The position numbers and the translations under genes were made by a program. Shown here piece after piece: positions 31,668-49,397 of a stretch of 64,000 nucleotides of DNA (position 1 is the stretch's first letter; the number at the start of each line of letters is the position of its first letter). The stretch is from Minisyncoccota bacterium (GTDB lineage: Bacteria > Patescibacteriota > Minisyncoccia > JBAYJV01), in the NCBI GenBank assembly GCA_041664925.1, contig JBAYJV010000001.1, positions 213,438 to 277,437 on the forward strand, in the 5' to 3' direction. Under the pieces are notes generated by a model that was not told the origin of the DNA, did no database searches, and was given only the letters and a program-made list of their open reading frames with translations.

Positions 31668-31847
31668 AGATATACAAAGTAAAATTTCGTGGACTGGGAG
31701 GGACTTGTCCCAGAAACTTCTATCCCGATAATTCGGGATTAGAATTTCGGGATCCCGTCATTGTAATTCCGGTAAACCGGAATAACAAGTGACTGGGAAA
31801 CCCTCTACCTCCCCGGCATGCCGGGGTGTTCTACCATCCTTAATATA
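31668..31847 (-). promoter_or_regulatory. GC-rich multi-hairpin element between tRNA-Ala and the downstream gene (CCCCGGCATGCCGGGG, TTCCGGTTTACCGGAA, CCCGAATTATCGGG, CTGGGAcaagtcccTCCCAG; contains AGAAGTTTCTGGGAC)
   Basis: hairpins belong to the same families used in the leader modules. Confidence 0.4.
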
Positions 31848-31918
31848 TGGACTCACCGGGAATCGAACCCGGATATCGACAATGCGAATGTCGCGTAATA
31901 CCGTTATACTATGAGCCC
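31848..31918 (-). tRNA. tRNA-Ala (anticodon CGC)
   Basis: cloverleaf folds by hand; G3:U70; anticodon loop UUCGCAU; T-loop GGUUCGAUUCC; CCA not encoded. Confidence 0.85.
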
Positions 31919-32033
31919 ATTGAAGGAAACTCAAAACTTAAATCTCAAAACGCAAAACCATAACTTAAAACTAAAAGCTTAATAGTTTTAATTTTTGAAT
32001 TTTGGCTTTAACTTTTGAGCTTTGAGCTCTAAG

Positions 32034-35580: not shown

Positions 35581-36708
35581 ATGAATACTAAAGAAACTGT
35601 CGGTATTATTGTTCACAAATACGAAAATCCCAATATTTTTTCTGTTCCCTATGGAGAGCAGAATAATTTTTTTAATGAACTATTAATAGAGGCAAAAAAA
35701 ATAAATTTAGAATTGTTTATTTTCCAACCAAAAGATATTAATTGGAAGAAAAAAACTATTAAAACTTTTGTCAATATAAACAATAACTTTATTGAAAAAG
35801 AAATGCCTCTTCCCGACATAGTTTACGACAGAATGTTTTCCAAGACAGCTCAAGAAATCGAAATTTTCAAAGAAGTCCATAAAAAATTTAATCAACTAAA
35901 TATTTTAATTGTTAATTCGAGAAAGTTTATCAAATTGACATGCAATAAATGGGAATTTTATCAATTGTTATATAAAAATAAATTTTTTAGACCCTATCTC
36001 CCCAAAACTTTTCTTTATGAAATAAATATTGCTAAACATTTATTAAAAAAGTGTCGAGCTGTTATTTTAAAACCAAAATACGGAGGACTGGGAACCGGAA
36101 TTATTAGTGTTATTAAAAAAAATTTTATCTTACCAATCTATATTATTGAGTATCAAACTAAAAATAATAGCATTCACAAAAAATATAAAAAATTTAACAT
36201 TTCTCTAAAAACAATTTCATCTTTGATCGAAAAAGGTTGGAAAAGAGGCGGTGGTTATATCGTCCAAGAAAAACTGACTGTAGCTCAATATCAAAAAAGA
36301 GTTTTTGATCTCAGGGTCATGATGCAAAAAACAAAAAAGGGCTGGTCTGTAAGCGGTATTGGCGGAAGAGTCGCCCCTCTAAAAGGATTCTTGGCCAATA
36401 TTCATGCTGGAGGAACAATAGAAAATGGAGTAGATATAATAAAAAATGTTTTTCCTAAAAAATCTACAATCATTCTTAGAAAAATTAAAAAACTTAGCGT
36501 AGCCTTAGCCAGTTATTTAGAAAAGTCCACGGGACCGGCTATCGAAATGGGGGTTGATTGTATCCTAGATAAGAGAGGAAATATCTGGATTATAGAAGTA
36601 AATTCAAAACCTTCGCGATTCATATTTTCTCGAAAAGATATGCTCCATCTTAGAAAAAAAATGATCTTACGACCATTACTATATATGAAGTGGTTAATTG
36701 AGAATTAA
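35581..36708 (+). CDS. YheC/YheD-family ATP-grasp protein
   Basis: KPKYGGLGTGI ATP-grasp-like phosphate-binding loop; overall architecture. Confidence 0.5.
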   Translation: MNTKETVGIIVHKYENPNIFSVPYGEQNNFFNELLIEAKKINLELFIFQPKDINWKKKTIKTFVNINNNFIEKEMPLPDIVYDRMFSKTAQEIEIFKEVHKKFNQLNILIVNSRKFIKLTCNKWEFYQLLYKNKFFRPYLPKTFLYEINIAKHLLKKCRAVILKPKYGGLGTGIISVIKKNFILPIYIIEYQTKNNSIHKKYKKFNISLKTISSLIEKGWKRGGGYIVQEKLTVAQYQKRVFDLRVMMQKTKKGWSVSGIGGRVAPLKGFLANIHAGGTIENGVDIIKNVFPKKSTIILRKIKKLSVALASYLEKSTGPAIEMGVDCILDKRGNIWIIEVNSKPSRFIFSRKDMLHLRKKMILRPLLYMKWLIEN

Positions 36709-36778: not shown

Positions 36779-37696
36779 TTATTTTTTAAAAAAGACTCTT
36801 TGAGGAATTTTTTTTAAATGCCATCGTTCCTTCCATCCTAAATCTTCTACGCCAGCATCAAGGTATTTTGTTCCAAGAGAAATTGCCTTTTCAAAATTCT
36901 TTGCTGTTAAGTACGTTCCAAGACTAGGAAAATCTTTTTTGTTTGCCCCTGAGTTTATATAAGTGTAGATGTCTTTATATTTTAGCGCCAAAGATACTGC
37001 TTCTTTTTTGCCATTTATAATAATCGTCAGAACTTGAAAACTTAAATCAAGTTTGAGCAAATCTCGAAAAATTTCTTTTCTATGAGGCGTACTAAAAACA
37101 GAATCATCACCAAAACTTCTAATATTTAATTCAAATAATTGATCAACGTCTTCAAAATTATTTTCAAGAATCTTTGGTTGATATAACCTTTCAATTCGAC
37201 GAAGAAGTTTTTTCATTTTGGCGCACGACTTTTGACTGAATTCCCTTGAAAGATAATCATTGGTATTTTTAAGACCAGAAAGATCAGCAACATATTTATA
37301 TTCCAGAATATCGAATTTCTTTGTAAAATCGTCTTCTCCAATAATATCATCTAGTCCCGCTTCTTGCTCAATGGCCTCATAAAATTTAGGAATATATTTT
37401 TCATAACCAGATTTTATGAATATCCGATTATCTTCCATATAACCACCACCAATAAAATCTAAATATCCTTTTTCGGCATTAAATTGTAGCGGAAGCAAGC
37501 CAATATTTTCTTGACCAATTCGTCCTACATAAAAAAATAAGGGATGCTGGAAATACTTATAAAAACAGTATCTCACATCCCAAAGATCATACATGATTTC
37601 ATTAGGACTTAACTCTTGCCAAACTTTTTTTGCTTCTTCTATTTTATCAATTCGGCTAATTTTCAATTTTTGATCACTGCTATCTTTAGGCATCAT
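36779..37696 (-). CDS. GNAT-fold acyltransferase (FemAB/CelD/BioF2-like, Acetyltransf_6-type)
   Basis: size and secondary-pattern resemblance; no catalytic motif verified. Confidence 0.4.
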   Translation of the reverse strand: MMPKDSSDQKLKISRIDKIEEAKKVWQELSPNEIMYDLWDVRYCFYKYFQHPLFFYVGRIGQENIGLLPLQFNAEKGYLDFIGGGYMEDNRIFIKSGYEKYIPKFYEAIEQEAGLDDIIGEDDFTKKFDILEYKYVADLSGLKNTNDYLSREFSQKSCAKMKKLLRRIERLYQPKILENNFEDVDQLFELNIRSFGDDSVFSTPHRKEIFRDLLKLDLSFQVLTIIINGKKEAVSLALKYKDIYTYINSGANKKDFPSLGTYLTAKNFEKAISLGTKYLDAGVEDLGWKERWHLKKIPQRVFFKK

Positions 37697-37700
37697 ATAT

Positions 37701-40163
37701 TTAGAGCACGCTCGGTTGGAGATGATGATAGGGAGGGTGATTTTTATATCTTTTTATCGCCATCCTGATAATCTCTTCCAAAAAATCTCCATAATCCAAC
37801 CCAATTACTTTTGCTGAATTAGGCACAGAGTCGCCAATATTAATCGAAGGGTTGGGATTTAATTCCAAAACATAGGGGTTATTATTTTTATCTACTCTCA
37901 ATTCGACTCGTCCATAATCATGACAATCTAAAATATTGTAGGTATCAAGAGCAATTTCAGTAATAAGTTTTGAAAGTTTCTTGCTAATATTTTTTGGTGG
38001 TCGTTGAATAGTGATTCCTTTGTCATAAGCATCATCTTCTTCCCATTTCGCTTCAAAAGGATAAATGTGCCAATATCCAGGAGGCATTTTATCAAACATA
38101 GACCTTGTTAGTGGCAAGACTCTTAGATCATCTTCTTCACTTCCTAAAATTGAAACATCATACTCATCTCCATCAATATATTCTTCTATAATCGCTGGTC
38201 GGCCAATTTCCATAATAATTTTTTCAAGTTGTTTTTCTAGTCTTTTTTTATTAGTTACCACCGAATCATTGGTAATGCCGATAGAATTGTCTGTGTTAGC
38301 TGGTTTTACTATCAATGGATACCTTAGATCCTCTCTGATATCGTCCTCTAAACTATAAATATAATCCCATTTCGGTGTCGGCATATTGTGGAATGCCAGC
38401 AACTTTTTAACCCTAATCTTGTCAATGCATAATCCAAGAGTAAATGAACTTGATCCCGTATAAGGAATTTGAAGCGCGTCTAAAATTGCCGCGGCATGGG
38501 GTTCAAGCAGACTTGATTCATTGATTCTTTCGCAGACATTAAAGATAAGATCGACATCGCTCTTTCTTAAATCTTCGAGTACGCGCGAAAGATTATTAAA
38601 ATCAAAGAAAGTCACTCGATATCCCCGTTCTATCAGGGTTTTTTCAATATTCTTTCCAACTGACATTAAATCTTTCTCAACTGCCCCAGCATTTTCATCA
38701 TAAAAATTACATGCAATACCAATATGGAGATTTCTCTGATTTTTTATCGACATTCTTCTAATCTTTTCAATTTTTCCGCTCCTAATAAGAATGTCTTGAT
38801 TGATAGCTGAAGGTGAAAAATGATTTTTACGCAATGTTTTTCCAATCGATGAAGCCGATTGAAAACGAGCCACTTCATAATTAACGCAATCCAAGGCCTC
38901 TTTTAGATTGTCTTGAGCATCTAAAGGATTATCGCCAGAAACCACAATCCATCCCAAATATTCGTACCCTTCAGGTGGCACCAAGACGGGATCGCCAATT
39001 TTTTTAAAAAATTCGATTTCTTCTACAAATGGTTTCTTCTTTATTTTCTCATCTATGTCAAATTGAACAATAATGCCAGAGTAATTGCTTAAAAAATCAT
39101 GTGACGCTAAATACATGTAAGGATTTTCTGGCTTATTGATTTTCGGAAAATATATTCCTAGGGCAATTTTGGCAGCTCCTTCGATAAAATCAATACGCCA
39201 AGCTTTTTTTATACTGTCGTAAATTTCATCTCCTCCCATTCTTAAATTAACCTCGATTGGCACAGGACCTTCTTTTGTTGATTTAGCTTCAAGATGAATA
39301 CAGCCATCTTGTATTCCCAGTTTTTCCAAAATTTCATCGGCCATAACTATAAGAGCCTCTTTATTTTTTTCTGGCAAACCCGATGGCGTTAAACGTCCCG
39401 TTTCGACAAAAAATGGTTCATTGGTTTTATTATTATCAGAAATAGAATGAAACTTAACTCTGCCATTTTGAATTAAAATATCGATATCAACCTCATCCCC
39501 GTCAATGTATTCTTCTATCATTATGTCTGTTCCGTCATTAAGCGCAGATTCCACCTCAGTATTAATGCTTTTTTTAATATATTGATAAGTTGATGTTAAT
39601 TCTTCTTCATTGTCGACTCTTACAACAAAGGCGCTGCTTGCTCCAAATGTTGGTTTAATCACTAAGGGAAATCCTAATTCCTTTGAAATTTTCTTTAAAT
39701 CCTCTGCTGATTTGACCATAATATGCCTTGGTGTCGGTAGGTTATTTTCTTGACAAAATTCACGAAACAGATATTTATTTCTAACCCTCTTTGAAATATT
39801 AAGAGGGATGCCTATAAAATTAAATTTATCTGTTATTTTTGAAGTCAAAAGAACATCGTCTTCCCAAAAAGTAATTGCTCCGTCAATTTTTATATTGGGA
39901 TTATTTGCCATAAAATCTTTTATGGCTTGGATTGATTCTGTATGATTGGTGTTATCTGCCAAAATCCAGTGATCAACATAAGGTTGCGCCCAGTTTTTTT
40001 CTTTATTGAGCACCACTATTTGAAGTCCCATTTTCTTAAGCTTCTGAATTACAAAACGCTTCTTAATAGAACCAGTATTTACCAAAAGAATTGTTTTTCC
40101 TAAAAGAGAATTTACGCCATTGTTTGGATTTAAAATTTTATCGTTATGATGACTATCTTTCAT
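37701..40163 (-). CDS. tandem ATP-grasp ligase (N-terminal ATP-grasp + C-terminal D-Ala-D-Ala-ligase-like ATP-grasp)
   Basis: FPLVIKPTFGASS and YPLIVKPANTDNS phosphate loops; DYGRVELRVDKNNNPYVLELNPNPSI Ddl-like C-terminus. Confidence 0.65.
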   Translation of the reverse strand: MKDSHHNDKILNPNNGVNSLLGKTILLVNTGSIKKRFVIQKLKKMGLQIVVLNKEKNWAQPYVDHWILADNTNHTESIQAIKDFMANNPNIKIDGAITFWEDDVLLTSKITDKFNFIGIPLNISKRVRNKYLFREFCQENNLPTPRHIMVKSAEDLKKISKELGFPLVIKPTFGASSAFVVRVDNEEELTSTYQYIKKSINTEVESALNDGTDIMIEEYIDGDEVDIDILIQNGRVKFHSISDNNKTNEPFFVETGRLTPSGLPEKNKEALIVMADEILEKLGIQDGCIHLEAKSTKEGPVPIEVNLRMGGDEIYDSIKKAWRIDFIEGAAKIALGIYFPKINKPENPYMYLASHDFLSNYSGIIVQFDIDEKIKKKPFVEEIEFFKKIGDPVLVPPEGYEYLGWIVVSGDNPLDAQDNLKEALDCVNYEVARFQSASSIGKTLRKNHFSPSAINQDILIRSGKIEKIRRMSIKNQRNLHIGIACNFYDENAGAVEKDLMSVGKNIEKTLIERGYRVTFFDFNNLSRVLEDLRKSDVDLIFNVCERINESSLLEPHAAAILDALQIPYTGSSSFTLGLCIDKIRVKKLLAFHNMPTPKWDYIYSLEDDIREDLRYPLIVKPANTDNSIGITNDSVVTNKKRLEKQLEKIIMEIGRPAIIEEYIDGDEYDVSILGSEEDDLRVLPLTRSMFDKMPPGYWHIYPFEAKWEEDDAYDKGITIQRPPKNISKKLSKLITEIALDTYNILDCHDYGRVELRVDKNNNPYVLELNPNPSINIGDSVPNSAKVIGLDYGDFLEEIIRMAIKRYKNHPPYHHLQPSVL

Positions 40164-40541: not shown

Positions 40542-40874
40542 ATGTGCGATAGAACTTTGGCCGATGTTCTTGTTTTTGACATCGGAATAATGGGACGGCA
40601 ATCACCTAACGGATCTGTTGAATTTTGCAATGCTTTCGTAAGAAAACATCTTGGGGGAATTACTGGAGAGATTCCCAAAATAGCTTGTCCTATATGCAAA
40701 CAAGGTGTCTTAATTGAAACTGAAAGAGGTGATGTTTTTTCTGAACCAACTCACCTTGGAGAAGGTATTTCTCAAGAAAAAGCATCAATTCCTATCGGAA
40801 GAAGTATTCGCCTCAGGTGTTCCGAATGTCAAAAAGTTTTCTCAGGAAAACGCATTTTCCTCACGGTCGCTTAG
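40542..40874 (+). CDS. hypothetical Cys-rich 110-aa protein
   Basis: CPICKQG...CSECQ pairs; SD AAAGGAGG. Confidence 0.5.
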   Translation: MCDRTLADVLVFDIGIMGRQSPNGSVEFCNAFVRKHLGGITGEIPKIACPICKQGVLIETERGDVFSEPTHLGEGISQEKASIPIGRSIRLRCSECQKVFSGKRIFLTVA

Positions 40875-40956: not shown

Positions 40957-41562
40957 TTGAACAAGAGAATGAATAGTTTCGGAGTTTTGATCGTTGCGGT
41001 GTTGGTTTTCGTTTCTTTACTTTCCGGAGTAGCGTTGGGAGCAGATCAAGGTATTGTTCTTTTATATAACACTCCCAGGACTGTGATGATTCCTTATCGA
41101 GTTGATGGTGTCGATATTCGATATTCGCTCGATGACAATATTGGAGTAAAACTGCAAGTGTATTTTCAGATTCCCTTTGGATCAGAAATCTATCTGGCAA
41201 AAAAATATGTTCCAGACTATTTCTTGGGAATGAATTATCAAGTAGAATTACCTCAACTTCCTAGTAATAAAAAATTTATAGGAGCGCCTTGTTCAAAATT
41301 GGTCTTTGGAATTCAAACCTATACATGGTGCGATTCGTCAGGCTCTTGGTTTCAATTACTTTCGTCGCTTCCTCCTATGCTTAGTGAACCATCAAAGGAC
41401 ATTCCTCACGCACCCATTAGTATTGATGGCAGCACCAATAAGCTCGTCTTCATTAATGTTCCCGATGGTCGCTGGTTGATGATTACTCTGCCCACCGGAG
41501 AAAGCCGCGAAGGCTATTGTAAGGCTTATTTATACAAACCAGTTCTTCCTATAAATCCTTAG
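40957..41562 (+). CDS. secreted hypothetical protein (signal peptide, probable TTG start 5 nt after AAAGGAGG)
   Basis: MNKRMNSFGVLIVAVLVFVSLLSGVALGA signal peptide. Confidence 0.5.
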   Translation: MNKRMNSFGVLIVAVLVFVSLLSGVALGADQGIVLLYNTPRTVMIPYRVDGVDIRYSLDDNIGVKLQVYFQIPFGSEIYLAKKYVPDYFLGMNYQVELPQLPSNKKFIGAPCSKLVFGIQTYTWCDSSGSWFQLLSSLPPMLSEPSKDIPHAPISIDGSTNKLVFINVPDGRWLMITLPTGESREGYCKAYLYKPVLPINP

Positions 41563-42300: not shown

Positions 42301-42532
42301 GACTAATAAGGGCGAAACGAAAAAACCTGAACCCTCCATAAGTTCATTATATTCGCTCCTATTCAGTTTATATACCTAGTATAGCAGAAAAAAGAAAAAA
42401 GTCAATAGTTTCGACCTCAGCATGAGTAGTTTTGAGTTATTTAGAGAAAATTTGACATCTATTTTATAATGCTTTATGATATTGATAGTACACAAATTTC
42501 GCCTTTTTAAAGGAGAGAAAAAGGAGAGAAAC

Positions 42533-42808
42533 ATGGACGATATCCAAAAAAGAGACGTTAGGACAATATTAGATGCATCTACTGAGGATGCGAAGTATTT
42601 CTATGAAAACCTCGAATCATTAAGGCAGCAATATCCTGACAAGTATGTGGCTATTCACGACGGAGAAGTTATCGCCTCAGGCAAGAATTATTCGAAACTA
42701 TTACAAAGATTGCGTACTCAATATGGACAAAGGGCTGTCTCGTCTTTCTTTATAAACTTCGTAGATCTTCACCCTGTTTCGTGGATTCTTTCTGCAATGT
42801 CTGCTTAG
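42533..42808 (+). CDS. hypothetical 91-aa protein
   Basis: promoter TTGACA-17-TATGAT; SD AAAAGGAG; terminator 42822-42862. Confidence 0.5.
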   Translation: MDDIQKRDVRTILDASTEDAKYFYENLESLRQQYPDKYVAIHDGEVIASGKNYSKLLQRLRTQYGQRAVSSFFINFVDLHPVSWILSAMSA

Positions 42809-42989
42809 TCCTCTGTTTAGGGAATGTCAAAAAAACATTCCCTCTTTTTTTAATATATGAAAAATTATCTAGAGAATATGGATAAAATATGCTTGAAAAT
42901 GCTGAATGCTTTTGACTTTACCGATTTTTTTGGTAAAATTCATTTATTATAAACTTTAAATTTTTAATTTTAAACTTTTAACTTGAAAC

Positions 42990-43700
42990 ATGTCTGGTCA
43001 TTCAAAATGGGCAACAATTAAACATAAAAAAGCCTTGCTCGACCAAAAACGAGGCAAAGTTTTTTCTCAGTTGGTTCGACAGATTCAAATCGCTGCTAGA
43101 GATAATCCCGACCCATCTACTAATCCAAGTTTGAGAGTTTTGGTTGATAAAGCCAAGGCTTCTAATATGCCAAATGACAATATTGAGCGCGCTATTAAAA
43201 AGGGTAGCGGTCAAGAAGATGGTTCTGTTATTGAAGAGTTAACTCTCGAAGCATATGGTCCTGTTGGTAGCGCTTTTTTAATTGAAGCGATTACTGATAA
43301 CCACAATCGAACTGTCGCAGAAATGAAACATCTTGTAGAAAGAAATGGCGGCCATATGGCTGAAAAAGGTTCTGTCGCCTGGCTTTTTGAGAAAAAAACT
43401 ATTTTCAAAATCTCTCTTTCTGATTGGAATGAAGATTTAGAACTTGCCTTGATTGATGCCAGTCTTGAAGACAGTCAAAAAACAGACGATGGCGTTTTGC
43501 TTTTATTTAATCCTCAGTTCGAATCTCAGGCAAGGCAAATTTTCAAAGATAAAGGAGTAACTTTAATATCAGAAGAGCTTGATTGGCAGGCGAAAAATCC
43601 TATCGAACTTTCTGGAGGAGATTTAGAAAAAGTTGAAAATTTCAACGACCTCATTGACGAAAATGATGATACTAAGGCAGTATATAATAATTTAGGTTGA
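42990..43700 (+). CDS. YebC/PmpR-family transcriptional regulator
   Basis: MSGHSKWATIKHKKA N-terminus. Confidence 0.85.
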   Translation: MSGHSKWATIKHKKALLDQKRGKVFSQLVRQIQIAARDNPDPSTNPSLRVLVDKAKASNMPNDNIERAIKKGSGQEDGSVIEELTLEAYGPVGSAFLIEAITDNHNRTVAEMKHLVERNGGHMAEKGSVAWLFEKKTIFKISLSDWNEDLELALIDASLEDSQKTDDGVLLLFNPQFESQARQIFKDKGVTLISEELDWQAKNPIELSGGDLEKVENFNDLIDENDDTKAVYNNLG

Positions 43701-43718: not shown

Positions 43719-44198
43719 ATGAAAATTCTTGGCATCGATCCTGGTACTGCTAGAACTGGTTATGGTTCGATTCGTTCTGTAGGTAAAAAGATGACTTGTC
43801 TCGATTATGGTTGTATCGAAACTTCTCAGGAGGAAAGCGATGCCAAGCGATTAACTAGAACATATCATGCTGTCAAGAAAATTCTTGATAAGGAAAAACC
43901 TGACCTTGTCATAGTTGAGCGCCTTTTCTTTTTTAAGAACATGAAAACCGTTATGACTGTTTCTCAATCCAGGGGTGTAATTTTGATGGCTTGTGAACAA
44001 AAAAAAGTTCCTATCATTGAATATACCCCTCTTCAAATTAAACAAAGTCTTTCTGGTTATGGCAGAGCTCAAAAGAAGGAAGTTCAAGAATGCGTTAAAA
44101 AACATCTTGGACTTGAGGACATCCCTCGTCCCGATGACGCTGCCGACGCTTTAGCGGGAGCAATTTGTCATCATCTGCGCAAAAACGAAAAAAAATGA
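43719..44198 (+). CDS. ruvC: crossover junction endodeoxyribonuclease RuvC
   Basis: ILGIDPGTARTGYG and acidic catalytic residues; yebC-ruvC synteny. Confidence 0.8.
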   Translation: MKILGIDPGTARTGYGSIRSVGKKMTCLDYGCIETSQEESDAKRLTRTYHAVKKILDKEKPDLVIVERLFFFKNMKTVMTVSQSRGVILMACEQKKVPIIEYTPLQIKQSLSGYGRAQKKEVQECVKKHLGLEDIPRPDDAADALAGAICHHLRKNEKK

Positions 44199-44231
44199 TA
44201 AAAAATAAAATAAATCTATTAAATTTTGACC

Positions 44232-44882
44232 ATGACTACTATTCTTTCCTATATAGTTAATCAAGGTGTCTCCGAACAAGTTTTGTCATATATCTTGTTG
44301 GCACCGCTCGTAGCGACCTTGATTGTTTTTTTAAGGCAGGTAATCGGATTAAAAAGCTTAGGCGTCTATCATCCTCTTCTTTTGGCTTTTGCCTTCGCTA
44401 GCGCTGGATTAAAAGAAGGGCTGTTTTTTTTCCTGTTAATTGTCCTTCTTGCTAATGCTATAACATATGTAGTTAAAAAGTTTCCCCTTCTTTACCTTCC
44501 GAGACTGACAATCGTTGTGACAGTCACCACTCTAGCTTTAATTTTAGTTATATCAATTATTCGTCTTTCGGATTACAGTTTAGCGCTAAGTGGTTACTTT
44601 CCTATTATCATCATCCTTGCACTAAGCGATAAGTTAGTCACCGCTCAAATGAAAAGAAATATAAAACCCGCATTGATTTTAACTGGCAGCACCCTTGCAG
44701 TAGCTCTTTTGGGATATTTTATTCTTAATATTGTTTGGTTACAAAACATTGTTTTAAATTATCCTTTAATTTTTCTTCTGGTTATAGTCGTGATAAATAT
44801 TTTTCTCGGACGTTTTCATGGTCTTCGTTTAAATGAGCTCTGGCGTTTTCGTCATCTCTTAAAATTACCTCCAAAGAATTAA
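44232..44882 (+). CDS. 7-TM membrane protein partnered with the RimK-like ligase (7TM 'inactive-transglutaminase-fused'-type family)
   Basis: about 7 hydrophobic helices; stop overlaps the next start (TAATG). Confidence 0.45.
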   Translation: MTTILSYIVNQGVSEQVLSYILLAPLVATLIVFLRQVIGLKSLGVYHPLLLAFAFASAGLKEGLFFFLLIVLLANAITYVVKKFPLLYLPRLTIVVTVTTLALILVISIIRLSDYSLALSGYFPIIIILALSDKLVTAQMKRNIKPALILTGSTLAVALLGYFILNIVWLQNIVLNYPLIFLLVIVVINIFLGRFHGLRLNELWRFRHLLKLPPKN

Positions 44883-46180
44883 TGTTCAATACCCTTAAAA
44901 ACTATCACGGCATTTTGGGACTTAATGCTCGAAACTTAGACTATGTTATCAAAAAACATGGTCAACGTCTTGATGTTGCCAATAATAAATTGTTGACAAA
45001 AAAAATTCTTCAAGGCGCTGGTTTGCCGATGCCAGAAACATATTTTGTTATTCGCAATAAAAAAGATTTTAATAAATTTAATTGGGACCTACCTAAATCG
45101 TTCGTTATCAAACCAAGTCGCAGCTTAGGCGGCGAAGGCGTGTTGATTGTCTATGGCAAGAAAAAAAATATTCCTACATGGATTAAAGCAGGACAACGAT
45201 TAATAGACTTAGAAGAAATCAAACACCATATTTATAATATTCTTGAAGGTAATTTCAGCCCTAAGGAAAAAGAAGATAGGGCTATTTTTGAAGAACGCGT
45301 TAAGTTACATCCCGCTTTTAAACCGTATACATTTAAAGGAGGCATTCCTGACGTTAGAGTTATTGTCTATCAAAAGATTCCTATAATGGCTCAACTGAGA
45401 TTGCCCACAGAAGAATCAGAAGGACGAAGCAATTTACATCTTGGAGGTATTGGAGTAGGCATTGATCTAAAAACTGGCATTACTACAACCTCTATCCTCC
45501 ATGATCATTTTATAGATAAAATTCCGGGCACAAGACACATTTTGTCTGGCATTCAAATTCCTTATTGGAAAGATGTTTTGAGAATTGCCGCTCTTGCTCA
45601 AAAACATGCTGGCATCGACCTTCTTGGTATTGATATCGCCATAGATAGAGAAAAAGGTCCGATGATTTTTGAAATAAATTCAAGGCCAGGCATTGCCATT
45701 CAAATGGCAAATCAATCTCCGTTAAGAGAAAGATTGGAAAGAATTGAAGGACTTAAGATCAAGTCAGCCAATCGGGGAACAAAAATTGCTCAAGAACTTT
45801 TTGGCGGAGAAGTTGAGGAAGAACTTGAAGAGATTAGTGGACGAAAAGTTATTGGTTTGTTTGAATTTATCGATATTATTGGTCCAAATAATAAAAAACT
45901 CAGACTGACTGCCAAGATTGATACTGGCGCCTATCGAACTTCTGTCGACAAAGATGTAATAGATAAACTTGGCTTGAAGGAAAGTAAAAAAAAGATTAAA
46001 TTTGTTTCATCTCTCGGAGGAGAGGAAAGATCCCTTGTTGATTTGGCTTTTTCTCTTGCGGGGCAAAGCATAGAAACAGAAGCTTCAATTGCTAATCGAT
46101 CAAATTTAAAATATAGCATAATTATTGGCAGACGCGATTTAAATCTTTTTCTGATTGACCCATTAAAGAAGATTAGTTAA
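44882..46180 (+). CDS. alpha-L-glutamate-ligase-like (RimK-related) ATP-grasp fused to C-terminal retropepsin-like DTGA aspartic protease
   Basis: FVIKPSRSLGGEGV ATP-grasp loop; C-terminal AKIDTGAYRTSV and IIIGRRDL. Confidence 0.65.
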   Translation: MFNTLKNYHGILGLNARNLDYVIKKHGQRLDVANNKLLTKKILQGAGLPMPETYFVIRNKKDFNKFNWDLPKSFVIKPSRSLGGEGVLIVYGKKKNIPTWIKAGQRLIDLEEIKHHIYNILEGNFSPKEKEDRAIFEERVKLHPAFKPYTFKGGIPDVRVIVYQKIPIMAQLRLPTEESEGRSNLHLGGIGVGIDLKTGITTTSILHDHFIDKIPGTRHILSGIQIPYWKDVLRIAALAQKHAGIDLLGIDIAIDREKGPMIFEINSRPGIAIQMANQSPLRERLERIEGLKIKSANRGTKIAQELFGGEVEEELEEISGRKVIGLFEFIDIIGPNNKKLRLTAKIDTGAYRTSVDKDVIDKLGLKESKKKIKFVSSLGGEERSLVDLAFSLAGQSIETEASIANRSNLKYSIIIGRRDLNLFLIDPLKKIS

Positions 46181-46195
46181 TAAATTATTCATAAC

Positions 46196-48826
46196 ATGGC
46201 AAAAAGAAAATACTACCGCCATCAGGACGGAGTCGGTAGTATTCCTATAAATAAAAAAAGAAAATATCATGCTTGGCGCAAAAGAAGTTTTAGTGCTTAC
46301 CTGCGTCTATTTTTTAAATTAAGTCTTATTGGGATTGCTTCGTTGTTTTTTGTTATTCTTCTGGCTTTCATCTATTACACCAAAGATCTTCCTAATCCTC
46401 AGGAAGTCCTCAATAAGCCATTTGATCAATCTACAAAAATTTATGCTCGTGATGAAAAAACTCTCCTTTATGAAGTCTTTAATGGTGGAAAAAGAACTGT
46501 TGTTGGCATTGAAAACATTTCTCCTTACGTCATAAATGCGACCATAGCCATAGAAGACAATAATTTTTATAAGCATCCCGGTATTGATTTCAGGGGAATT
46601 TTGAGATCTGCCTGGATTGCGGTAAAAACCGGTGGACAATATGTTCAGGGAGCATCAACGATTACTCAGCAATTTGTTAGAAATTCTCTCTTAACTCTTG
46701 ATCGGACTATCAGTAGAAAATTAAAAGAAATTATTTTGTCATTGGAACTAGAAAGAAGATACACAAAAAATGACATTTTGGCTTTCTATTTAAATCAAAT
46801 ACCCTACGGATCAAATACCTACGGTGTTGAATCAGCCAGTCGGGCCTTTTTTGGAAAATCAGTTAAAGATGTCACTTTGGGAGAAGCCGCAATTCTAGCT
46901 GCCATACCCAAAGCCCCATCAAAATATTCTCCTTATGGTACTAACCCCGAACTTCTTTTGGGTCGCCAGAAATTAGTCTTAAAAAGAATGAAAGATCTTG
47001 GATATATTACAGAAAAGGAAATGACTGATGCTTTGGCAGAAAAGATTGAATTCCAGAAACAAAAAACTGGATTTAAGGCTCCTCATTTTGTCATGTATAT
47101 CAAAGAACAATTAGAGGCAAAATATGGTAAAGATGTTATCGAAACGGGAGGGCTTCATGTTTATACAACTCTTGATTGGGATTTACAGCAAAAAGCTGAA
47201 GAAATTGTCTCAAAAAATGGTGTTCAAAATGAAAAAGAGTTTGGCGCAAAAAATGCTGCTTTAGTTGCTATCGATCCTAGGACTGGTGAAATTTTATCTA
47301 TGGTTGGTTCCAGAGATTATTTCGACACAGAAAATGATGGCAATGTAAATGTTGCCCTTAGACCTCGCCAGCCCGGATCTGCCTTTAAGCCTTTTGCTTA
47401 TTCAACTGCTTTCGCAAAAGGATATACGCCAGACACAATTCTTTATGATGTTAAAACTGAGTTCAATCCTTATTGCCTCTCTAGCGCTGTTCAAGCCAAG
47501 GATCAGTTCGGCTTAGACTGCTATCATCCTAATAATTATGACAATAACGAGCGTGGTCCTCTCACGATGCGCTCAGCCTTAGCTCAATCACTTAATATTC
47601 CTTCCGTTAAAACTCTTTACCTGGCAGGAATAGACGACACGATTGCGCTGGCAAAAAAAATGGGCATTTCTACCCTTGAAGATCGATCACGCTTTGGATT
47701 AGCTTTAGTTCTTGGCGGAGGCGAAGTTAAGCTTCTAGAATTAACCTCAGCTTACGGGATTTTTGCTACCGAAGGATTAAAAAATAATTATTACAGCATT
47801 GTTCGCGTTGAGGATGGTAAAGGAAATATCCTTGAAGAATATAAGCCCGAACAGCCAGAAAGAGTTTTGGATCAAAATGTTTCTCGATTGATCACTGATG
47901 TTTTATCAGATAATAATGCTCGCGCGCCGATATTTGGCACTGCCAGCTCCTTGTATTTTGGAGATACTCCTGTAGCGGCAAAAACTGGAACAACTCAAGA
48001 TTATCGAGATGGTTGGACAATTGGTTATACGCCAAATTTCGTCGCTGGTGTTTGGACCGGCAATAATGATAATTCATCTATGGGTAAAACTGCTGGCATC
48101 AGAACTGCCGGACTGATTTGGCATGAATTTATGCTCGAAGCTCTAAAAAATAGAGAAAAAACAAGCTTTAATCCGCCAACTATTGCTGTTCCAGATAAGC
48201 CGGTATTAAGAGGAGTGGTCGGCGGAGAGACTGTTAAGATAGATACTGTTTCTGGCAAGCGAGCTACTGACTTAACACCGCCGGAATTAATAGAAGAAAA
48301 AACTTTTTTGAAGGCCCATTGCATTCTTTACTATGTAAACAAAGATGATCCTCAGGGTCCTGCGCCAACAAATCCAGCTGATGATCCTCAGTTTAATAAC
48401 TGGGAACAAGCTGTTAGGTCGTGGGCGCAAGATCCAGCAAGAGGCAATCTTGTCGAAGAAATCCCTCCTCAAGAATTTGACAATATTCATACGCTAGAAA
48501 ATAAACCGATTCTTGAGATATTATCGCCCGGCAACGGCGATACGCTCAGAAGCGATACTGTTAGAATTTCCGCTGATGTCAGGGCTAATTATCCAATTAA
48601 AGAAGTAGATTTTTTCTTTGACGATATTTTCCTGGGATCAAAAGTTTCCTCTCCTTATGATTGGAGTTTTAAACCATCAGGAGATCAATTGTTGGGTCGT
48701 CACAAAATCACGGTTAAGGCCTATGACATCTATCTAAACTCATCCGCAAAGAGTATTAATATTACAACTGATATTGGAAATATTTCTGATAGCAGCGAAG
48801 CAACAGGTACCATTATAATTCCGTAA
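46196..48826 (+). CDS. class A penicillin-binding protein (second copy) with ~250-aa C-terminal extension
   Basis: AIEDNNFYKHPGID GT51 motif; RQPGSAFKP SxxK motif. Confidence 0.8.
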   Translation: MAKRKYYRHQDGVGSIPINKKRKYHAWRKRSFSAYLRLFFKLSLIGIASLFFVILLAFIYYTKDLPNPQEVLNKPFDQSTKIYARDEKTLLYEVFNGGKRTVVGIENISPYVINATIAIEDNNFYKHPGIDFRGILRSAWIAVKTGGQYVQGASTITQQFVRNSLLTLDRTISRKLKEIILSLELERRYTKNDILAFYLNQIPYGSNTYGVESASRAFFGKSVKDVTLGEAAILAAIPKAPSKYSPYGTNPELLLGRQKLVLKRMKDLGYITEKEMTDALAEKIEFQKQKTGFKAPHFVMYIKEQLEAKYGKDVIETGGLHVYTTLDWDLQQKAEEIVSKNGVQNEKEFGAKNAALVAIDPRTGEILSMVGSRDYFDTENDGNVNVALRPRQPGSAFKPFAYSTAFAKGYTPDTILYDVKTEFNPYCLSSAVQAKDQFGLDCYHPNNYDNNERGPLTMRSALAQSLNIPSVKTLYLAGIDDTIALAKKMGISTLEDRSRFGLALVLGGGEVKLLELTSAYGIFATEGLKNNYYSIVRVEDGKGNILEEYKPEQPERVLDQNVSRLITDVLSDNNARAPIFGTASSLYFGDTPVAAKTGTTQDYRDGWTIGYTPNFVAGVWTGNNDNSSMGKTAGIRTAGLIWHEFMLEALKNREKTSFNPPTIAVPDKPVLRGVVGGETVKIDTVSGKRATDLTPPELIEEKTFLKAHCILYYVNKDDPQGPAPTNPADDPQFNNWEQAVRSWAQDPARGNLVEEIPPQEFDNIHTLENKPILEILSPGNGDTLRSDTVRISADVRANYPIKEVDFFFDDIFLGSKVSSPYDWSFKPSGDQLLGRHKITVKAYDIYLNSSAKSINITTDIGNISDSSEATGTIIIP

Positions 48827-48867: not shown

Positions 48868-48905
48868 ACTGATTTGTTAGACACCGAGTGTCTAACAAGT
48901 TTTTT
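48868..48905 (+). terminator. terminator TTGTTAGACACcgaGTGTCTAACAA + T run (preceded by direct repeat TTGTTAGACAC)
   Basis: direct reading. Confidence 0.7.
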
Positions 48906-49081: not shown

Positions 49082-49157
49082 GCTCCGGTAGCTCAGTGGA
49101 CAGAGCGACGGCCTTCTAAGCCGTGGGTCGGGGGTTCAAATCCTCTCCGGAGTACCA
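49082..49157 (+). tRNA. tRNA-Arg (anticodon TCT), CCA encoded
   Basis: hand-folded cloverleaf; anticodon loop CUUCUAA. Confidence 0.85.
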
Positions 49158-49161
49158 GAAA

Positions 49162-49238
49162 GGGTCCGTAGCTCAGTTGGATAGAGCAGCCGGCTCATAA
49201 CCGGTAGGTCTCGGGTTCAAGTCCCGGCGGACCCACCA
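49162..49238 (+). tRNA. tRNA-Met (anticodon CAT; elongator-type or Ile2 precursor), CCA encoded
   Basis: anticodon loop CUCAUAA; 1-72 paired; no 3xGC in anticodon stem. Confidence 0.8.
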
Positions 49239-49246
49239 GAGCAGCA

Positions 49247-49321
49247 GGGCGCATAACTCAGCGGAAGAGTAGCGGACTTTTAATCCGTTAGCCGCGGGTT
49301 CGATCCCCGCTGCGCCCACCA
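49247..49321 (+). tRNA. tRNA-Lys (anticodon TTT), CCA encoded
   Basis: anticodon loop CUUUUAA; acceptor GGGCGCA/UGCGCCC. Confidence 0.85.
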
Positions 49322-49362
49322 GCCCCGCACTAAACAGAGTTAGTGCGGGGATCTTTTTTTTA
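49322..49362 (+). terminator. terminator CCCCGCACTAAacagagTTAGTGCGGGG + T8
   Basis: direct reading. Confidence 0.8.
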
Positions 49363-49369
49363 TAGACTA

Positions 49370-49397
49370 TTGACAACATTTTTGTTTATCCTATAAT
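49370..49397 (+). promoter_or_regulatory. promoter TTGACA-16-TATAAT driving the ncRNA
   Basis: consensus hexamers. Confidence 0.65.

What the first reader, a model, noticed from the sequence alone, without database searches (positions are those of the whole stretch)
44232..46180. 7TM protein translationally coupled to a RimK-like ATP-grasp fused to a DTGA aspartic protease
The TAATG overlap joins a 7-TM protein to a 432-aa protein. Its N-terminus is an alpha-L-glutamate-ligase-like ATP-grasp. Its C-terminal ~130 aa carry AKIDTGAYRTSV ... IIIGRRDL, a retropepsin-like clan AA active site. A ligase, protease and 7TM triad has been predicted computationally as a peptide-tagging or maturation system. 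As far as I know it remains biochemically uncharacterised. Here ligase and protease are fused in one polypeptide.
Basis: partly seen in the sequence, partly recalled or inferred. Interest (0 to 1): 0.6.

Follow-up and report, generated by a model that had tools for sequence, protein, structure and literature searches.

The report
Membrane-coupled ligase fused to retropepsin protease
This is a real two-gene module, conserved across the ultra-small Patescibacteria, in which a seven-helix membrane protein is paired with one polypeptide that joins a glutamate-ligase-like enzyme to an HIV-protease-like peptidase; it is a stripped-down, differently wired version of the recently described Rlo/Rim systems, not a wholly new kind of system.

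Summary
A 216-aa 7TM protein (44232-44882) overlaps by TAATG a 432-aa protein (44882-46180). The N-terminus of the larger protein is an RloC-type ATP-grasp (PF14397 6.6e-60; TIGR02291 7.7e-79). Its C-terminus is a retropepsin-like domain, with top Foldseek hits to RloA, Lpg0085, Ddi1 and HIV protease.

The claim that the triad is uncharacterised is out of date. It corresponds to the rloABC operon of Pseudomonas (mBio 2025), a relative of RimK/RimB, and a RimB-RimK hybrid has already been shown to be proteolytically active (JBC 2025).

Four things differ here:
- The domain order is ligase then protease, so the protease is cytoplasmic.
- The protease flap region is about 30 residues shorter than in RloA.
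- The RloB-like partner has only the 7TM core and no transglutaminase ectodomain.
- A nearly invariant Glu-rich linker (LFGGE[IV]EEE[LIV]E[ED]ISG) joins the two domains.

The pair sits in a conserved yebC-ruvC-7TM-fusion(-ATP-grasp)-PBP1A neighbourhood in 78 of 80 Patescibacteria species representatives. Three RloA polyglutamate-contacting residues and the catalytic Asp are conserved.

My best reading is a membrane-docked, self-editing acidic-peptide (probably oligo-alpha-glutamate) ligase/peptidase. The chemistry, the substrate and the 7TM role are inferred, not shown. Verdict: a new variant of a known kind, of moderate interest.

The parts
42912..42939 (+). Promoter-like site upstream of yebC; candidate start of the transcription unit
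   Evidence: Consensus scan gives TTGACT-16-TAAAAT with a TG extension, 10 of 12 matches. The number of such sites in the region is no higher than in shuffles, so this is weak evidence.
42990..43700 (+). yebC/TACO1-family gene (context, same strand)
   Evidence: Pfam TACO1_YebC_N 7e-31 and Transcrip_reg 1.8e-36. A YebC homologue lies upstream of the pair in 68 of 80 species loci.
43719..44198 (+). ruvC gene (context, same strand)
   Evidence: Pfam RuvC 5.8e-47. A RuvC homologue lies upstream of the 7TM gene in 72 of 80 species loci.
44232..44882 (+). 7TM membrane protein: the RloB-type seven-helix core without any ectodomain (216 aa)
   Evidence: PF14402 7TM_transglut 4.3e-28, matching profile positions 51-247 only. 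NCBIfam RloB matches only its positions 311-507 of 508. Hydropathy gives segments read as seven helices, with basic residues on the inferred cytoplasmic loops and tail. A 7TM gene lies directly upstream of the fusion gene in 78 of 80 loci. Conserved motifs RQxIGxKxFGxYxP, LYLPR and G[RK]WxGLRxxExxRF[RK] fall on the inferred cytoplasmic face.
44880..44884 (+). TAATG stop/start overlap between the 7TM gene and the fusion gene
   Evidence: Read directly from the sequence. In related loci the two genes overlap or lie within about 13 nt in most cases; these are approximate start calls.
44882..45805 (+). ATP-grasp ligase domain of the RloC / TIGR02291 / PF14397 clade (residues 1-308)
   Evidence: TIGR02291 7.7e-79 at 264.9 bits, below the 314 cutoff; PF14397 6.6e-60; RimK family only 40.9 bits. 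AF2 pLDDT is about 90 over residues 40-265. Foldseek gives ArgX/LysX, RimK, cyanophycin synthetase and PsnB. K77, R139, D251, E264 and N266 are invariant in 81 orthologues.
45797..45841 (+). Conserved Glu-rich linker LFGGEVEEELEEISG (residues 306-320)
   Evidence: Translation. It is the most conserved stretch of the protein, with mean column conservation 0.84 against 0.72 for the ATP-grasp and 0.60 for the protease over 81 species representatives. AF2 predicts a helix at 311-319 with low confidence. Stand-alone ATPgrasp_ST partners of protease-7TM fusions end about 20 residues before it.
45842..46180 (+). Retropepsin-like (RimB/RloA family, PF05618) aspartic peptidase domain (residues 321-432) plus stop codon
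   Evidence: Profile against PDB: RloA2 9g59 2.3e-8, RloA 9g58 7.4e-7, Ddi1 5e-4. AF2 domain model pLDDT 81, with Foldseek top hits RloA, Lpg0085, APRc, foamy-virus, Ddi1 and HIV proteases.
45920..45931 (+). Catalytic motif D347-T-G-A350
   Evidence: D is kept in 81 of 81 orthologues, T/S in 81, G in 81 and A in 81. K345, two residues upstream, corresponds to RloA K46.
46127..46138 (+). G416-R-R-D419, the retropepsin 'G-R-D/N' motif
   Evidence: G is kept in 81 of 81, R/K in 80 of 81 and D/N in 78 of 81. The correspondence to HIV-1 protease G86-R87-N88 rests on established knowledge of retropepsins.
46196..48826 (+). Class A penicillin-binding protein (PBP1A-type), starting 16 nt after the fusion gene; probably co-transcribed
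   Evidence: Pfam Transgly 1.2e-60, Transpeptidase 4.3e-18 and Big_7. A PBP1A homologue lies downstream on the same strand in 52 of 80 loci and immediately adjacent in 6.
48871..48901 (+). Terminator-like hairpin after the PBP1A gene
   Evidence: 14-bp stem followed by a T-run. No plus-strand terminator-like site was found between 42843 and 48871.

Best explanation
This is the Patescibacteria (CPR) version of the Rlo system, reduced to two genes.

Gene 1 encodes only the seven-helix core of RloB. I infer N-terminus out and C-terminus in, with the conserved residues on the cytoplasmic loops and a basic cytoplasmic tail.

Gene 2 encodes one cytoplasmic polypeptide with two domains. The first is an RloC-clade ATP-grasp amide ligase. 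It most likely adds alpha-linked L-glutamate (or another acidic residue) stepwise, either to a carboxylate acceptor or as a free oligomer. The second is a RimB/RloA-type retropepsin. It must dimerise to form its Asp-Asp active site, and it cuts acidic, oligo-glutamate-like chains.

I propose that the ligase-peptidase docks on the cytoplasmic face of the 7TM protein. There it builds and trims an acidic peptide chain, so that polymer length or abundance is set by two opposing activities held at 1:1 stoichiometry. The 7TM protein would either hand the product across the membrane or anchor and regulate the enzyme. The nearly invariant Glu-rich helix between the two domains is likely an intramolecular element for the peptidase or for dimer assembly: an autoprocessing site, a pseudo-substrate or a docking helix.

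Shown here: domain identities, intact catalytic motifs, conservation of three of RloA's polyglutamate-binding residues, strict gene pairing, and domain shuffling among the three partners. Inferred: glutamate as the substrate, the nature of the acceptor, translocation by the 7TM protein, the role of the linker, and a link to the cell envelope.
For: Component identity:
- The 7TM protein matches PF14402 (4.3e-28) and the C-terminal 7TM part of NCBIfam RloB.
- The ligase matches TIGR02291 at 265 bits against 41 bits for the RimK family, and PF14397 at 6.6e-60. Its fold is closest to ArgX/LysX, RimK and cyanophycin synthetase.
- The peptidase profile hits RloA2 and RloA structures at 2.3e-8 and 7.4e-7, and the model's best Foldseek hits are RloA, Lpg0085 and retroviral or Ddi1 proteases.

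Both active sites look intact:
- K77, D251, E264 and N266 are in 81 of 81 orthologues, as are D347, G349 and A350.

Substrate-channel residues:
- The HMMER alignments to RloA map K345=K46, D347=D48, R383=R114 and R406=R137. The spacings are 2 and 23 in both proteins.
- R114 and R137 are the residues whose mutation most reduced polyE cleavage by RloA and abolished complementation (PMC12239564).
- They are kept in 78-81 of 81 orthologues.

Functional linkage of the three parts:
- The 7TM gene is directly upstream of the fusion gene in 78 of 80 species-level genomes.
- Elsewhere the same retropepsin type is fused to the N-terminus of the 7TM protein behind a signal anchor, with a stand-alone 290-aa ATPgrasp_ST gene next to it (P0198, P0203, P0250, P0124; loci L089-L092).
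- In Pseudomonas the three are separate genes of one operon, and rloB or rloC loss suppresses the rloA-null phenotypes.

Precedent for ligase-protease cooperation:
- RimB binds RimK, trims its polyGlu product and stimulates poly-alpha-Glu synthesis. The RimBK hybrid is proteolytically active.

Acidic-tail theme:
- Some orthologues carry a C-terminal MATCAP-type metallocarboxypeptidase domain. MATCAP-like genes follow the fusion gene in 7 of 80 loci.

Envelope context:
- In this window I infer a single unit yebC-ruvC-7TM-fusion-PBP1A. There is a promoter-like site at 42912 and terminator-like sites only at 42819 and 48871.
Against: - No activity of any RloC-clade ligase has been measured, so glutamate is inferred only from family resemblance. 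TIGR02291 is a 'hypothetical equivalog', and the score here is below its cutoff.
- The protease sits on the cytoplasmic side here but outside the membrane in Pseudomonas (secreted RloA) and in the signal-anchor-retropepsin-7TM fusions. A simple model of 'export, then cleave outside' therefore cannot hold for all variants.
- The flap region, which carries several polyE contacts in RloA (R92, K95, K97, R99, K109), is about 30 residues shorter here, so specificity may differ.
- No Glu-tailed or poly-Glu protein is encoded in the window.
- RuvC and YebC are conserved neighbours as often as, or more often than, PBP1A. The PBP1A adjacency may therefore be inherited synteny rather than a functional link.
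- The basic 7TM tail motif also occurs where the ligase lacks the acidic linker. The tail therefore cannot be a dedicated partner of that linker.
- Topology and operon structure are predictions from hydropathy and consensus scans only.
Confidence: 0.55

Rival explanations
1. A cytoplasmic protein-tail modification cycle of the RimK/RimB type. The fused enzyme adds Glu residues to, and removes them from, the C-terminus of a cytoplasmic protein such as ribosomal protein S6. The 7TM protein only localises or regulates it, and nothing is exported.
For: - Both catalytic domains are cytoplasmic, as in RimK/RimB and the RimBK hybrid.
- The fold is close to RimK.
- RimB-type polyE contacts are conserved.
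- The occasional MATCAP-type carboxypeptidase partner fits C-terminal tail editing.
Against: - The ATP-grasp scores 265 bits on the RloC-type model against 41 bits on the RimK family.
- It lacks the RimK-type N-terminal pre-ATP-grasp region seen in the RimK-like gene of L093.
- Pairing with a membrane protein in 78 of 80 genomes is not a feature of rim loci.
- No rpsF or Glu-tailed ORF is nearby.
Confidence: 0.2
2. A cell-wall enzyme. The ligase adds an amino acid to a peptidoglycan or other envelope precursor at the membrane, and the module works with the co-transcribed class A PBP. The retropepsin would process an envelope protein or peptide.
For: - The PBP1A gene starts 16 nt downstream with no predicted terminator between.
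- PBP1A is downstream on the same strand in 52 of 80 loci.
[quoted passage not shown] The authors themselves raise peptidoglycan homeostasis.
- The window carries further amide-ligase genes nearby: a fused L-amino-acid-ligase/Ddl-like protein, a YheC/D-like ATP-grasp and a GNAT Acetyltransf_6 protein.
Against: - Adjacency to RuvC and YebC is stronger than to PBP1A, so the order may simply be conserved CPR synteny.
- In most loci 1-5 kb of unrelated genes separate the pair from PBP1A.
- The nearest characterised ligases act on alpha-carboxylates of peptides and proteins, not on UDP-MurNAc peptides. The Ddl hits are weak.
Confidence: 0.15
3. A ribosomal-peptide (RiPP-like) tagging or maturation system. 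A small precursor peptide would be modified by the ATP-grasp, cut by the protease and exported by the 7TM protein.
For: - The ligase-plus-protease-plus-membrane-protein logic resembles RiPP clusters.
- The graspetide ligase PsnB is among the structural neighbours.
Against: - No conserved small ORF accompanies the pair in 80 loci. The genes overlap or abut, and the flanks are housekeeping genes.
- There is no acidic or repeat-rich small ORF in the window.
- The family belongs with RimK/RloC-type chain-extending ligases rather than macrocyclising graspetide ligases, by sequence.
Confidence: 0.05
4. The retropepsin domain is catalytically silent here and serves only as a dimerisation or allosteric module for the ligase. 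This would resemble RimB's stimulation of RimK without its cutting activity.
For: - RimB stimulates RimK ATPase and poly-Glu synthesis independently of its trimming role.
- Fusing a dimerising domain would dimerise the ligase.
Against: - D-[TS]-G-A, G-[RK]-x-[DN] and the basic channel residues are essentially invariant across 81 divergent orthologues. That is not expected for a purely structural domain.
- The RimBK hybrid's protease domain is active.
Confidence: 0.05

Closest known systems
RloABC operon of Pseudomonas aeruginosa/fluorescens (Lormand et al., mBio 2025, PMC12239564)
   Same: - It has the same three protein families: a PF05618 retropepsin-like peptidase with DTGA, a PF14402 seven-helix membrane protein, and a TIGR02291/PF14397 ATP-grasp.
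- The genes lie in one operon.
- Catalytic D48 and polyE-binding K46, R114 and R137 are conserved (here D347, K345, R383, R406).
   Different: - Here the peptidase has no signal peptide and is fused to the C-terminus of the ligase, so it is cytoplasmic rather than periplasmic.
- Its flap region is about 30 residues shorter, and the periplasmic disulfide cysteines are irrelevant.
- The membrane protein lacks the inactive transglutaminase ectodomain. Some CPR relatives carry a PKD domain instead.
- The gene order is 7TM then ligase-protease, rather than the rloA, rloB, rloC order implied by the PA14 locus tags.
- The host is Patescibacteria, whereas RloB was reported as 96% Proteobacteria.
- There is a conserved Glu-rich linker.
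RimK/RimB and the RimBK hybrid (Little et al., JBC 2025, PMC11957791)
   Same: - An ATP-grasp alpha-L-glutamate ligase works with a cytoplasmic retropepsin-like endopeptidase that cuts oligo-Glu.
- A natural single-polypeptide hybrid exists and is proteolytically active.
   Different: - RimBK has the protease at the N-terminus and a RimK-clade ligase at the C-terminus. Here the order is reversed and the ligase is of the RloC clade (265 bits against 41 bits).
- Rim loci have no 7TM partner.
- RimBK was found mostly in Flavobacteriales and Rhodobacterales.
- The known target RpsF has no demonstrated link here.
Retroviral and Ddi1 retropepsins (MEROPS family A2 and relatives)
   Same: - A compact fold of about 110 residues.
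- DTGA and G-R-D/N motifs.
- The active site is expected to be homodimeric.
- The protease is embedded in a larger polyprotein next to a possible cleavage site.
   Different: - The sequence family is bacterial PF05618.
- The substrate channel is basic, implying acidic substrates.
- There is no evidence yet of autoprocessing.
Polymer synthase / membrane component / depolymerase systems (poly-gamma-glutamate PgsBCA with a depolymerase; cyanophycin synthetase with cyanophycinase). This is an analogy from general knowledge only.
   Same: An ATP-dependent amide ligase that makes an amino-acid polymer is paired with a dedicated hydrolase. For poly-gamma-glutamate there are also membrane components.
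   Different: The ligase (apart from the ATP-grasp of cyanophycin synthetase), the hydrolase and the membrane proteins belong to unrelated families. The linkage expected here is alpha, not gamma.

Membership tests
Rlo system (RloA/RloB/RloC) | RloC-type ATP-grasp (TIGR02291 / PF14397) | tested here: met
   PF14397 at 203 bits against a cutoff of 31.4. TIGR02291 at 7.7e-79 over 301 of 317 positions, but 264.9 bits is below the curated 314. It is a clear clade member, not a strict equivalog.
Rlo system (RloA/RloB/RloC) | RloB: seven-helix PF14402 membrane protein | tested here: met
   PF14402 at 98.9 bits against a cutoff of 25.
Rlo system (RloA/RloB/RloC) | RloB: periplasmic inactive transglutaminase domain fused to the 7TM region | tested here: not met
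   The protein is 216 aa. It matches only positions 311-507 of the 508-position RloB model, at 69 bits against a cutoff of 900. Long CPR relatives carry PKD domains, not a transglutaminase domain.
Rlo system (RloA/RloB/RloC) | RloA: secreted (signal peptide) stand-alone retropepsin-like peptidase | tested here: not met
   The domain is C-terminal to a cytoplasmic ATP-grasp with no intervening hydrophobic segment. RloA1, RloA2 and RloA3 models score 19-27 bits against cutoffs of 210-280.
Rlo system (RloA/RloB/RloC) | Catalytic DTG(A) and basic polyE-binding residues (K46, R114, R137) | tested here: met
   Alignment to 9g58 and 9g59 and conservation in 81 orthologues.
Rlo system (RloA/RloB/RloC) | [quoted passage not shown] | not testable with these tools
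   This needs genetics in a cultivable host.
RimK/RimB (and the RimBK hybrid) | RimK-family ligase (TIGR00768) | tested here: not met
   40.9 bits against a cutoff of 143.4, matching only residues 30-93.
RimK/RimB (and the RimBK hybrid) | RimB equivalog peptidase; in RimBK, protease N-terminal to ligase | tested here: not met
   The RimB model scores 18.9 bits against a cutoff of 200. The domain order here is ligase then protease.
RimK/RimB (and the RimBK hybrid) | Polyglutamylation and de-glutamylation of RpsF | not testable with these tools
   No rpsF gene is in the window and no biochemistry was possible.
Clan AA retropepsin-like peptidases | Retropepsin fold with D-T/S-G-A and G-R-D/N motifs | tested here: met
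   Foldseek hits, each reported at probability 1.00, to RloA, APRc, Ddi1, foamy-virus, HIV, HTLV, FIV, EIAV and XMRV proteases. The motifs are at 45920-45931 and 46127-46138.
Clan AA retropepsin-like peptidases | Homodimer forming an Asp dyad | not tested
   Only monomer models could be made. There is a single DTG per chain, so dimerisation is required by inference.

The most novel reading that the evidence does not exclude
The Glu-rich linker is the enzyme's own built-in substrate. By analogy with retroviral polyproteins, the retropepsin domain would dimerise and cut its own polypeptide at LFGGE[IV]EEE[LIV]EE|ISG. That would free an active protease and leave the ligase with a C-terminal oligo-Glu stub. 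The stub could prime or regulate chain extension at the 7TM protein, which then passes an acidic peptide to the cell surface of these wall-bearing but envelope-poor ultra-small bacteria. If so, this would be a bacterial, chromosomal example of polyprotein-style retropepsin autoprocessing. It would also give a compact two-gene system in which the unknown chemistry of RloC and RloB could be solved.
Probability: 0.12. Interest if true: 0.75.

Novelty: new variant of a known kind. Interest (0 to 1): 0.45.

Why it matters
The Rlo system affects osmotic survival, biofilm formation and tolerance to cell-wall-targeting antibiotics in Pseudomonas. What its ligase makes, what its protease cuts in vivo and what the 7TM protein does are all unknown.

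The Patescibacteria version is a natural minimal form: two genes, no ectodomain, and ligase and protease at fixed 1:1 stoichiometry. That makes it a convenient handle for biochemistry and structure work.

The retropepsin appears in several arrangements: secreted, tethered outside on the 7TM protein, or fused inside to the ligase. The 7TM-ligase pairing stays constant throughout. This is strong comparative evidence that all three act on one product, and it constrains models of where that product lies.

The module is also one of the few conserved, lineage-wide, envelope-adjacent gene pairs of unknown function in the reduced genomes of Patescibacteria.

Tried and rejected
- Single-sequence tests of the C-terminal domain were inconclusive. 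Pfam and NCBIfam hits were all sub-threshold, and phmmer against PDB gave only 2.3e-3. An orthologue profile and a separate AF2 model settled the question.
- The Foldseek search with the full-length model returned only ATP-grasp hits and said nothing about the C-terminus.
- I looked for a substrate or precursor nearby. No ORF of 50 aa or more in the window has a Glu-rich tail or an acidic run. No conserved small ORF accompanies the pair.
- I tested whether the window's 820-aa double ATP-grasp is the counterpart of the roughly 500-aa ATP-grasp that follows the fusion gene in 30 of 80 loci. The similarity is only generic to ATP-grasps (34 bits, 24% identity), so I rejected this.
- I tested the idea that the acidic linker pairs with the basic 7TM tail. 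The tail motif is equally conserved in 7TM proteins whose ligase partner lacks the linker, so a dedicated pairing is not supported.
- PADLOC gave no defence-system match for either protein.
- The 2009 Iyer et al. amidoligase paper, which the mBio paper cites for ATP-grasp diversity, is not in the held library. What it predicted could not be checked.
- Literature searches found no description of the Patescibacteria fusion.
Full report
**1. What is in the sequence**

Two same-strand ORFs occupy 44232-46180. The first is 216 aa from the ATG at 44232, with an in-frame TTG at 44226. It ends with TAA at 44880-44882. The second is 432 aa and starts with an ATG at 44882-44884, so the genes share one base in TAATG.

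**2. The membrane protein**

It matches Pfam 7TM_transglut (PF14402) at 4.3e-28, but only over profile positions 51-247. It matches the NCBIfam RloB model only over positions 311-507 of 508. So it is the seven-helix core with no ectodomain.

Hydropathy gives hydrophobic segments that I read as seven helices. Basic residues cluster on alternate loops and on the C-terminal tail.

In nine related loci the orthologue is about 510-525 aa. It starts with a signal peptide, followed by a PKD domain and about 200 further residues before the same 7TM core. That fixes the topology as N-terminus out, C-terminus in.

The conserved motifs are RQxIGxKxFGxYxP, LYLPR and G[RK]WxGLRxxExxRF[RK]. All fall on the inferred cytoplasmic face.

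**3. The ligase domain**

Residues 8-308 match TIGR02291 ('alpha-L-glutamate ligase-like protein') at 7.7e-79 and PF14397 at 6.6e-60. The RimK family model gives only 41 bits.

The AF2 model has a mean pLDDT of 79.7, and about 90 across the core. Its closest solved structures are ArgX/LysX, RimK, cyanophycin synthetase and PsnB.

K77, R139, D251, E264 and N266 are invariant in 81 orthologues. This fits an active ATP-grasp, because E-x-N is the usual Mg/ATP motif of the superfamily (established knowledge).

The first 28 residues are predicted disordered yet contain invariant G13, N15 and R17.

**4. The protease domain**

On the single sequence all aspartic-protease models are sub-threshold:
- PF05618 scores 26.2 bits against a cutoff of 27.
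- Asp_protease_2 gives 3e-4.
- RloA3 gives 2.5e-6 and clan_AA_DTGF 2e-4.

A 19-sequence profile of the linker plus domain gives clearer results against PDB:
- RloA2 (9g59) at 2.3e-8.
- RloA (9g58) at 7.4e-7.
- Yeast Ddi1 at 5e-4.
- Lpg0085 (2pma) at 2.3e-3.

A separate AF2 model of the domain (pLDDT 81) has the following as best Foldseek matches: RloA, Lpg0085, Rickettsia APRc, foamy-virus protease, Ddi1 and HIV-1 protease.

The HMMER alignments give a residue map onto RloA of P. aeruginosa: K345=K46, D347=D48, R383=R114 and R406=R137. The K-to-D spacing (2) and the R-to-R spacing (23) are identical in both proteins. The D-to-R spacing is 36 here against 66 in RloA. So the long RloA flap is about 30 residues shorter here.

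R114 and R137 are the residues whose mutation most impaired polyE cleavage and abolished complementation. All four mapped residues are kept in 78-81 of 81 orthologues, and G416-[RK]-x-[DN]419 in 78-81.

**5. The linker**

Residues 306-320 (LFGGEVEEELEEISG) are the best-conserved stretch of the whole protein across 81 species-level orthologues. Mean column conservation is 0.84, against 0.72 for the ligase and 0.60 for the protease.

The linker has six Glu in eight positions, with hydrophobic residues at i, i+4 and i+7. AF2 draws it as a low-confidence helix.

Stand-alone ATPgrasp_ST proteins that partner protease-7TM fusions end about 20 residues before it. It is therefore a feature of the fused form. 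A few lineages have degenerate or expanded versions (L025, L051, L055, L061, L064).

RimB needs 5 or more terminal Glu, and RloA needs 8 or more internal Glu. The interrupted run here is not an obvious canonical substrate. Its function is open: autoprocessing site, pseudo-substrate or docking helix.

**6. Distribution and context**

The 120 best hits in the 5.8-billion-protein collection are all 426-458 aa. Nearly all carry precomputed PF14397 and PF05618. Those that are named come from Portnoybacteria or the 'Patescibacteria group'.

A scan of one genome per GTDB species found 469 genomes encoding a relative. The best 80 are Patescibacteria-type MAGs, including Portnoy-, Falkow-, Moran-, Andersen-, Specht- and Doudnabacteria. 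Some carry evidently loose labels.

In those 80 loci:
- A 7TM gene lies directly upstream in 78.
- RuvC lies upstream in 72 and YebC in 68.
- A roughly 500-aa ATP-grasp_3 gene is immediately downstream in 30.
- A class A PBP is downstream on the same strand in 52, and adjacent in 6, as in this window.

In the window itself, a promoter-like site at 42912 and terminator-like hairpins only at 42819-42843 and 48871-48901 suggest one unit: yebC-ruvC-7TM-fusion-PBP1A. These are consensus matches only.

**7. Domain shuffling**

An exhaustive profile search with the linker plus protease found 2463 cluster representatives at E ≤ 1e-3 and 539 at E ≤ 1e-10. Among the best hits the domain occurs in several settings:
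- At the C-terminus of ATPgrasp_ST, as here.
- In that arrangement with a further C-terminal MATCAP-type metallopeptidase, ATP-grasp_3 or YdjC domain.
- Behind a signal anchor at the N-terminus of the 7TM protein, once or in tandem, with a stand-alone 290-aa ATPgrasp_ST gene next door.
- As a 119-aa stand-alone gene between a PKD-7TM gene and a RimK-like gene.

So ligase, protease and 7TM protein are linked by gene fusion in every pairwise combination except ligase-7TM. The protease can sit on either side of the membrane.

**8. Comparison with what is known**

The three families are those of the rloABC operon (PMC12239564):
- RloA is a secreted retropepsin-like dimer that cleaves polyGlu.
- RloB is an inactive-transglutaminase/7TM protein.
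- RloC is a cytoplasmic ATP-grasp.
- Loss of rloB or rloC rescues the rloA1-3 triple mutant.
- The biochemical activities of RloB and RloC are unknown.

The sister system is RimK/RimB. It polyglutamylates and trims RpsF, and RimB also stimulates poly-alpha-Glu synthesis. A RimB-RimK hybrid with the protease at the N-terminus is proteolytically active (PMC11957791).

The window's module fails the strict RloA, RloB and RimK/RimB membership tests:
- It has no signal peptide.
- It has no transglutaminase domain.
- It scores below the equivalog cutoffs.
- Its domain order is reversed relative to RimBK.

It clearly belongs to the same functional class. I found no paper describing this Patescibacteria form. 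Public annotation calls it 'RimK/LysX family protein' or 'alpha-L-glutamate ligase-like protein'.

**9. Mechanism**

The best-supported reading is a membrane-docked pair of opposing activities acting on an acidic, probably oligo-alpha-glutamate, chain. The 7TM protein would serve as a platform or conduit.

The Pseudomonas genetics suggest to me (my inference, not the authors' statement) that the RloB/RloC product becomes harmful when it is not cleaved. Fusing the protease to the ligase would guarantee such editing in a lineage with no periplasm.

The envelope link (PBP1A, osmotic and shape phenotypes) is suggestive but not established, because the RuvC and YebC adjacency is stronger. Rival readings are listed with their tests. 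They are RimK-like tail modification of a cytoplasmic protein, a cell-wall precursor ligase, RiPP maturation, and a silent protease domain.

**10. Verdict**

The finding is real and the domains were correctly read. It is a widespread but undescribed architectural variant of a system first characterised in 2025. I rate the novelty as a new variant of a known kind. Interest is moderate. Its main value is as a minimal experimental handle on the unknown RloC/RloB chemistry, together with the conserved Glu-rich linker.

Noticed in passing
window 37701-40163 (-): An 820-aa protein fuses two ATP-grasp ligases. The N-terminal half resembles an L-amino-acid ligase (ATP-grasp_4 2.2e-33, LAL_C2 1.7e-11). 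The C-terminal half resembles D-Ala-D-Ala ligase (Dala_Dala_lig_C 1.4e-37; PRK01372 1.2e-61). A homologue sits at the same relative position in locus L009.
   Followed up: partly
window 35581-36708 (+) and 36779-37696 (-): A YheC/D-like ATP-grasp (PF14398 1.8e-61) lies next to a GNAT Acetyltransf_6 protein (2.1e-10). Together with the 820-aa protein and the finding itself, that makes four amide-bond-forming enzymes within about 11 kb of a small genome.
   Followed up: no
loci L046, L048, L054, L064, L072, L074, L083, L084, L086 and L093 (7TM gene upstream of the fusion gene, or of the stand-alone protease in L093): In these Patescibacteria lineages the 7TM protein is about 510-525 aa in the five forms translated. 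It has a signal peptide, a PKD domain and about 200 residues of unassigned ectodomain in place of the proteobacterial inactive transglutaminase.
   Followed up: partly
P0124 / loci L091-L092; P0198, P0203 (L089), P0250 (L090): Outside the CPR-type loci the same retropepsin type is fused, behind a signal anchor, to the N-terminus of the 7TM protein. In P0124 it occurs twice in tandem, which could give a pepsin-like pseudo-dimer. A stand-alone 290-aa ATPgrasp_ST gene follows. L089 carries two further aspartic-protease genes.
   Followed up: partly
P0136, P0159 (proteins); loci L029, L032, L055, L064, L075, L077, L085: A MATCAP-type (PF08014, tubulin tyrosine carboxypeptidase family) metallopeptidase is fused to, or encoded directly after, the ligase-retropepsin protein. 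Together these are bacterial counterparts of both a tubulin-tail ligase fold and a tubulin-tail carboxypeptidase in one locus.
   Followed up: partly
P0122 (539 aa): A class I lysyl-tRNA synthetase (tRNA-synt_1f 2.3e-84) carries the same retropepsin-like domain at its C-terminus. This is unexplained.
   Followed up: no
locus L093, 2909-5308: A CPR-like yebC-ruvC locus has a PKD-7TM gene, then a stand-alone 119-aa retropepsin gene, then a gene whose N-terminus looks RimK-like rather than RloC-like. This suggests ligase-clade swapping within the same neighbourhood.
   Followed up: partly
window 49082-49321 (+) and 31847-31919 (-): A tRNA-Arg(tct), tRNA-Met(cat), tRNA-Lys(ttt) cluster lies just downstream of the PBP1A terminator, and a tRNA-Ala(cgc) lies further upstream. 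The ORF listing entry at 49173-49379 (-) overlaps these tRNA genes and is probably spurious.
   Followed up: yes
window 40542-40874 (+), 40957-41562 (+), 42476-42808 (+): Three small ORFs lie between the ligase genes and yebC. One is a 110-aa protein with two CxxC pairs. One is a 201-aa protein with an N-terminal hydrophobic segment and no Pfam match. One is a DUF5678 protein (7.3e-12). None of them is Glu-rich.
   Followed up: no
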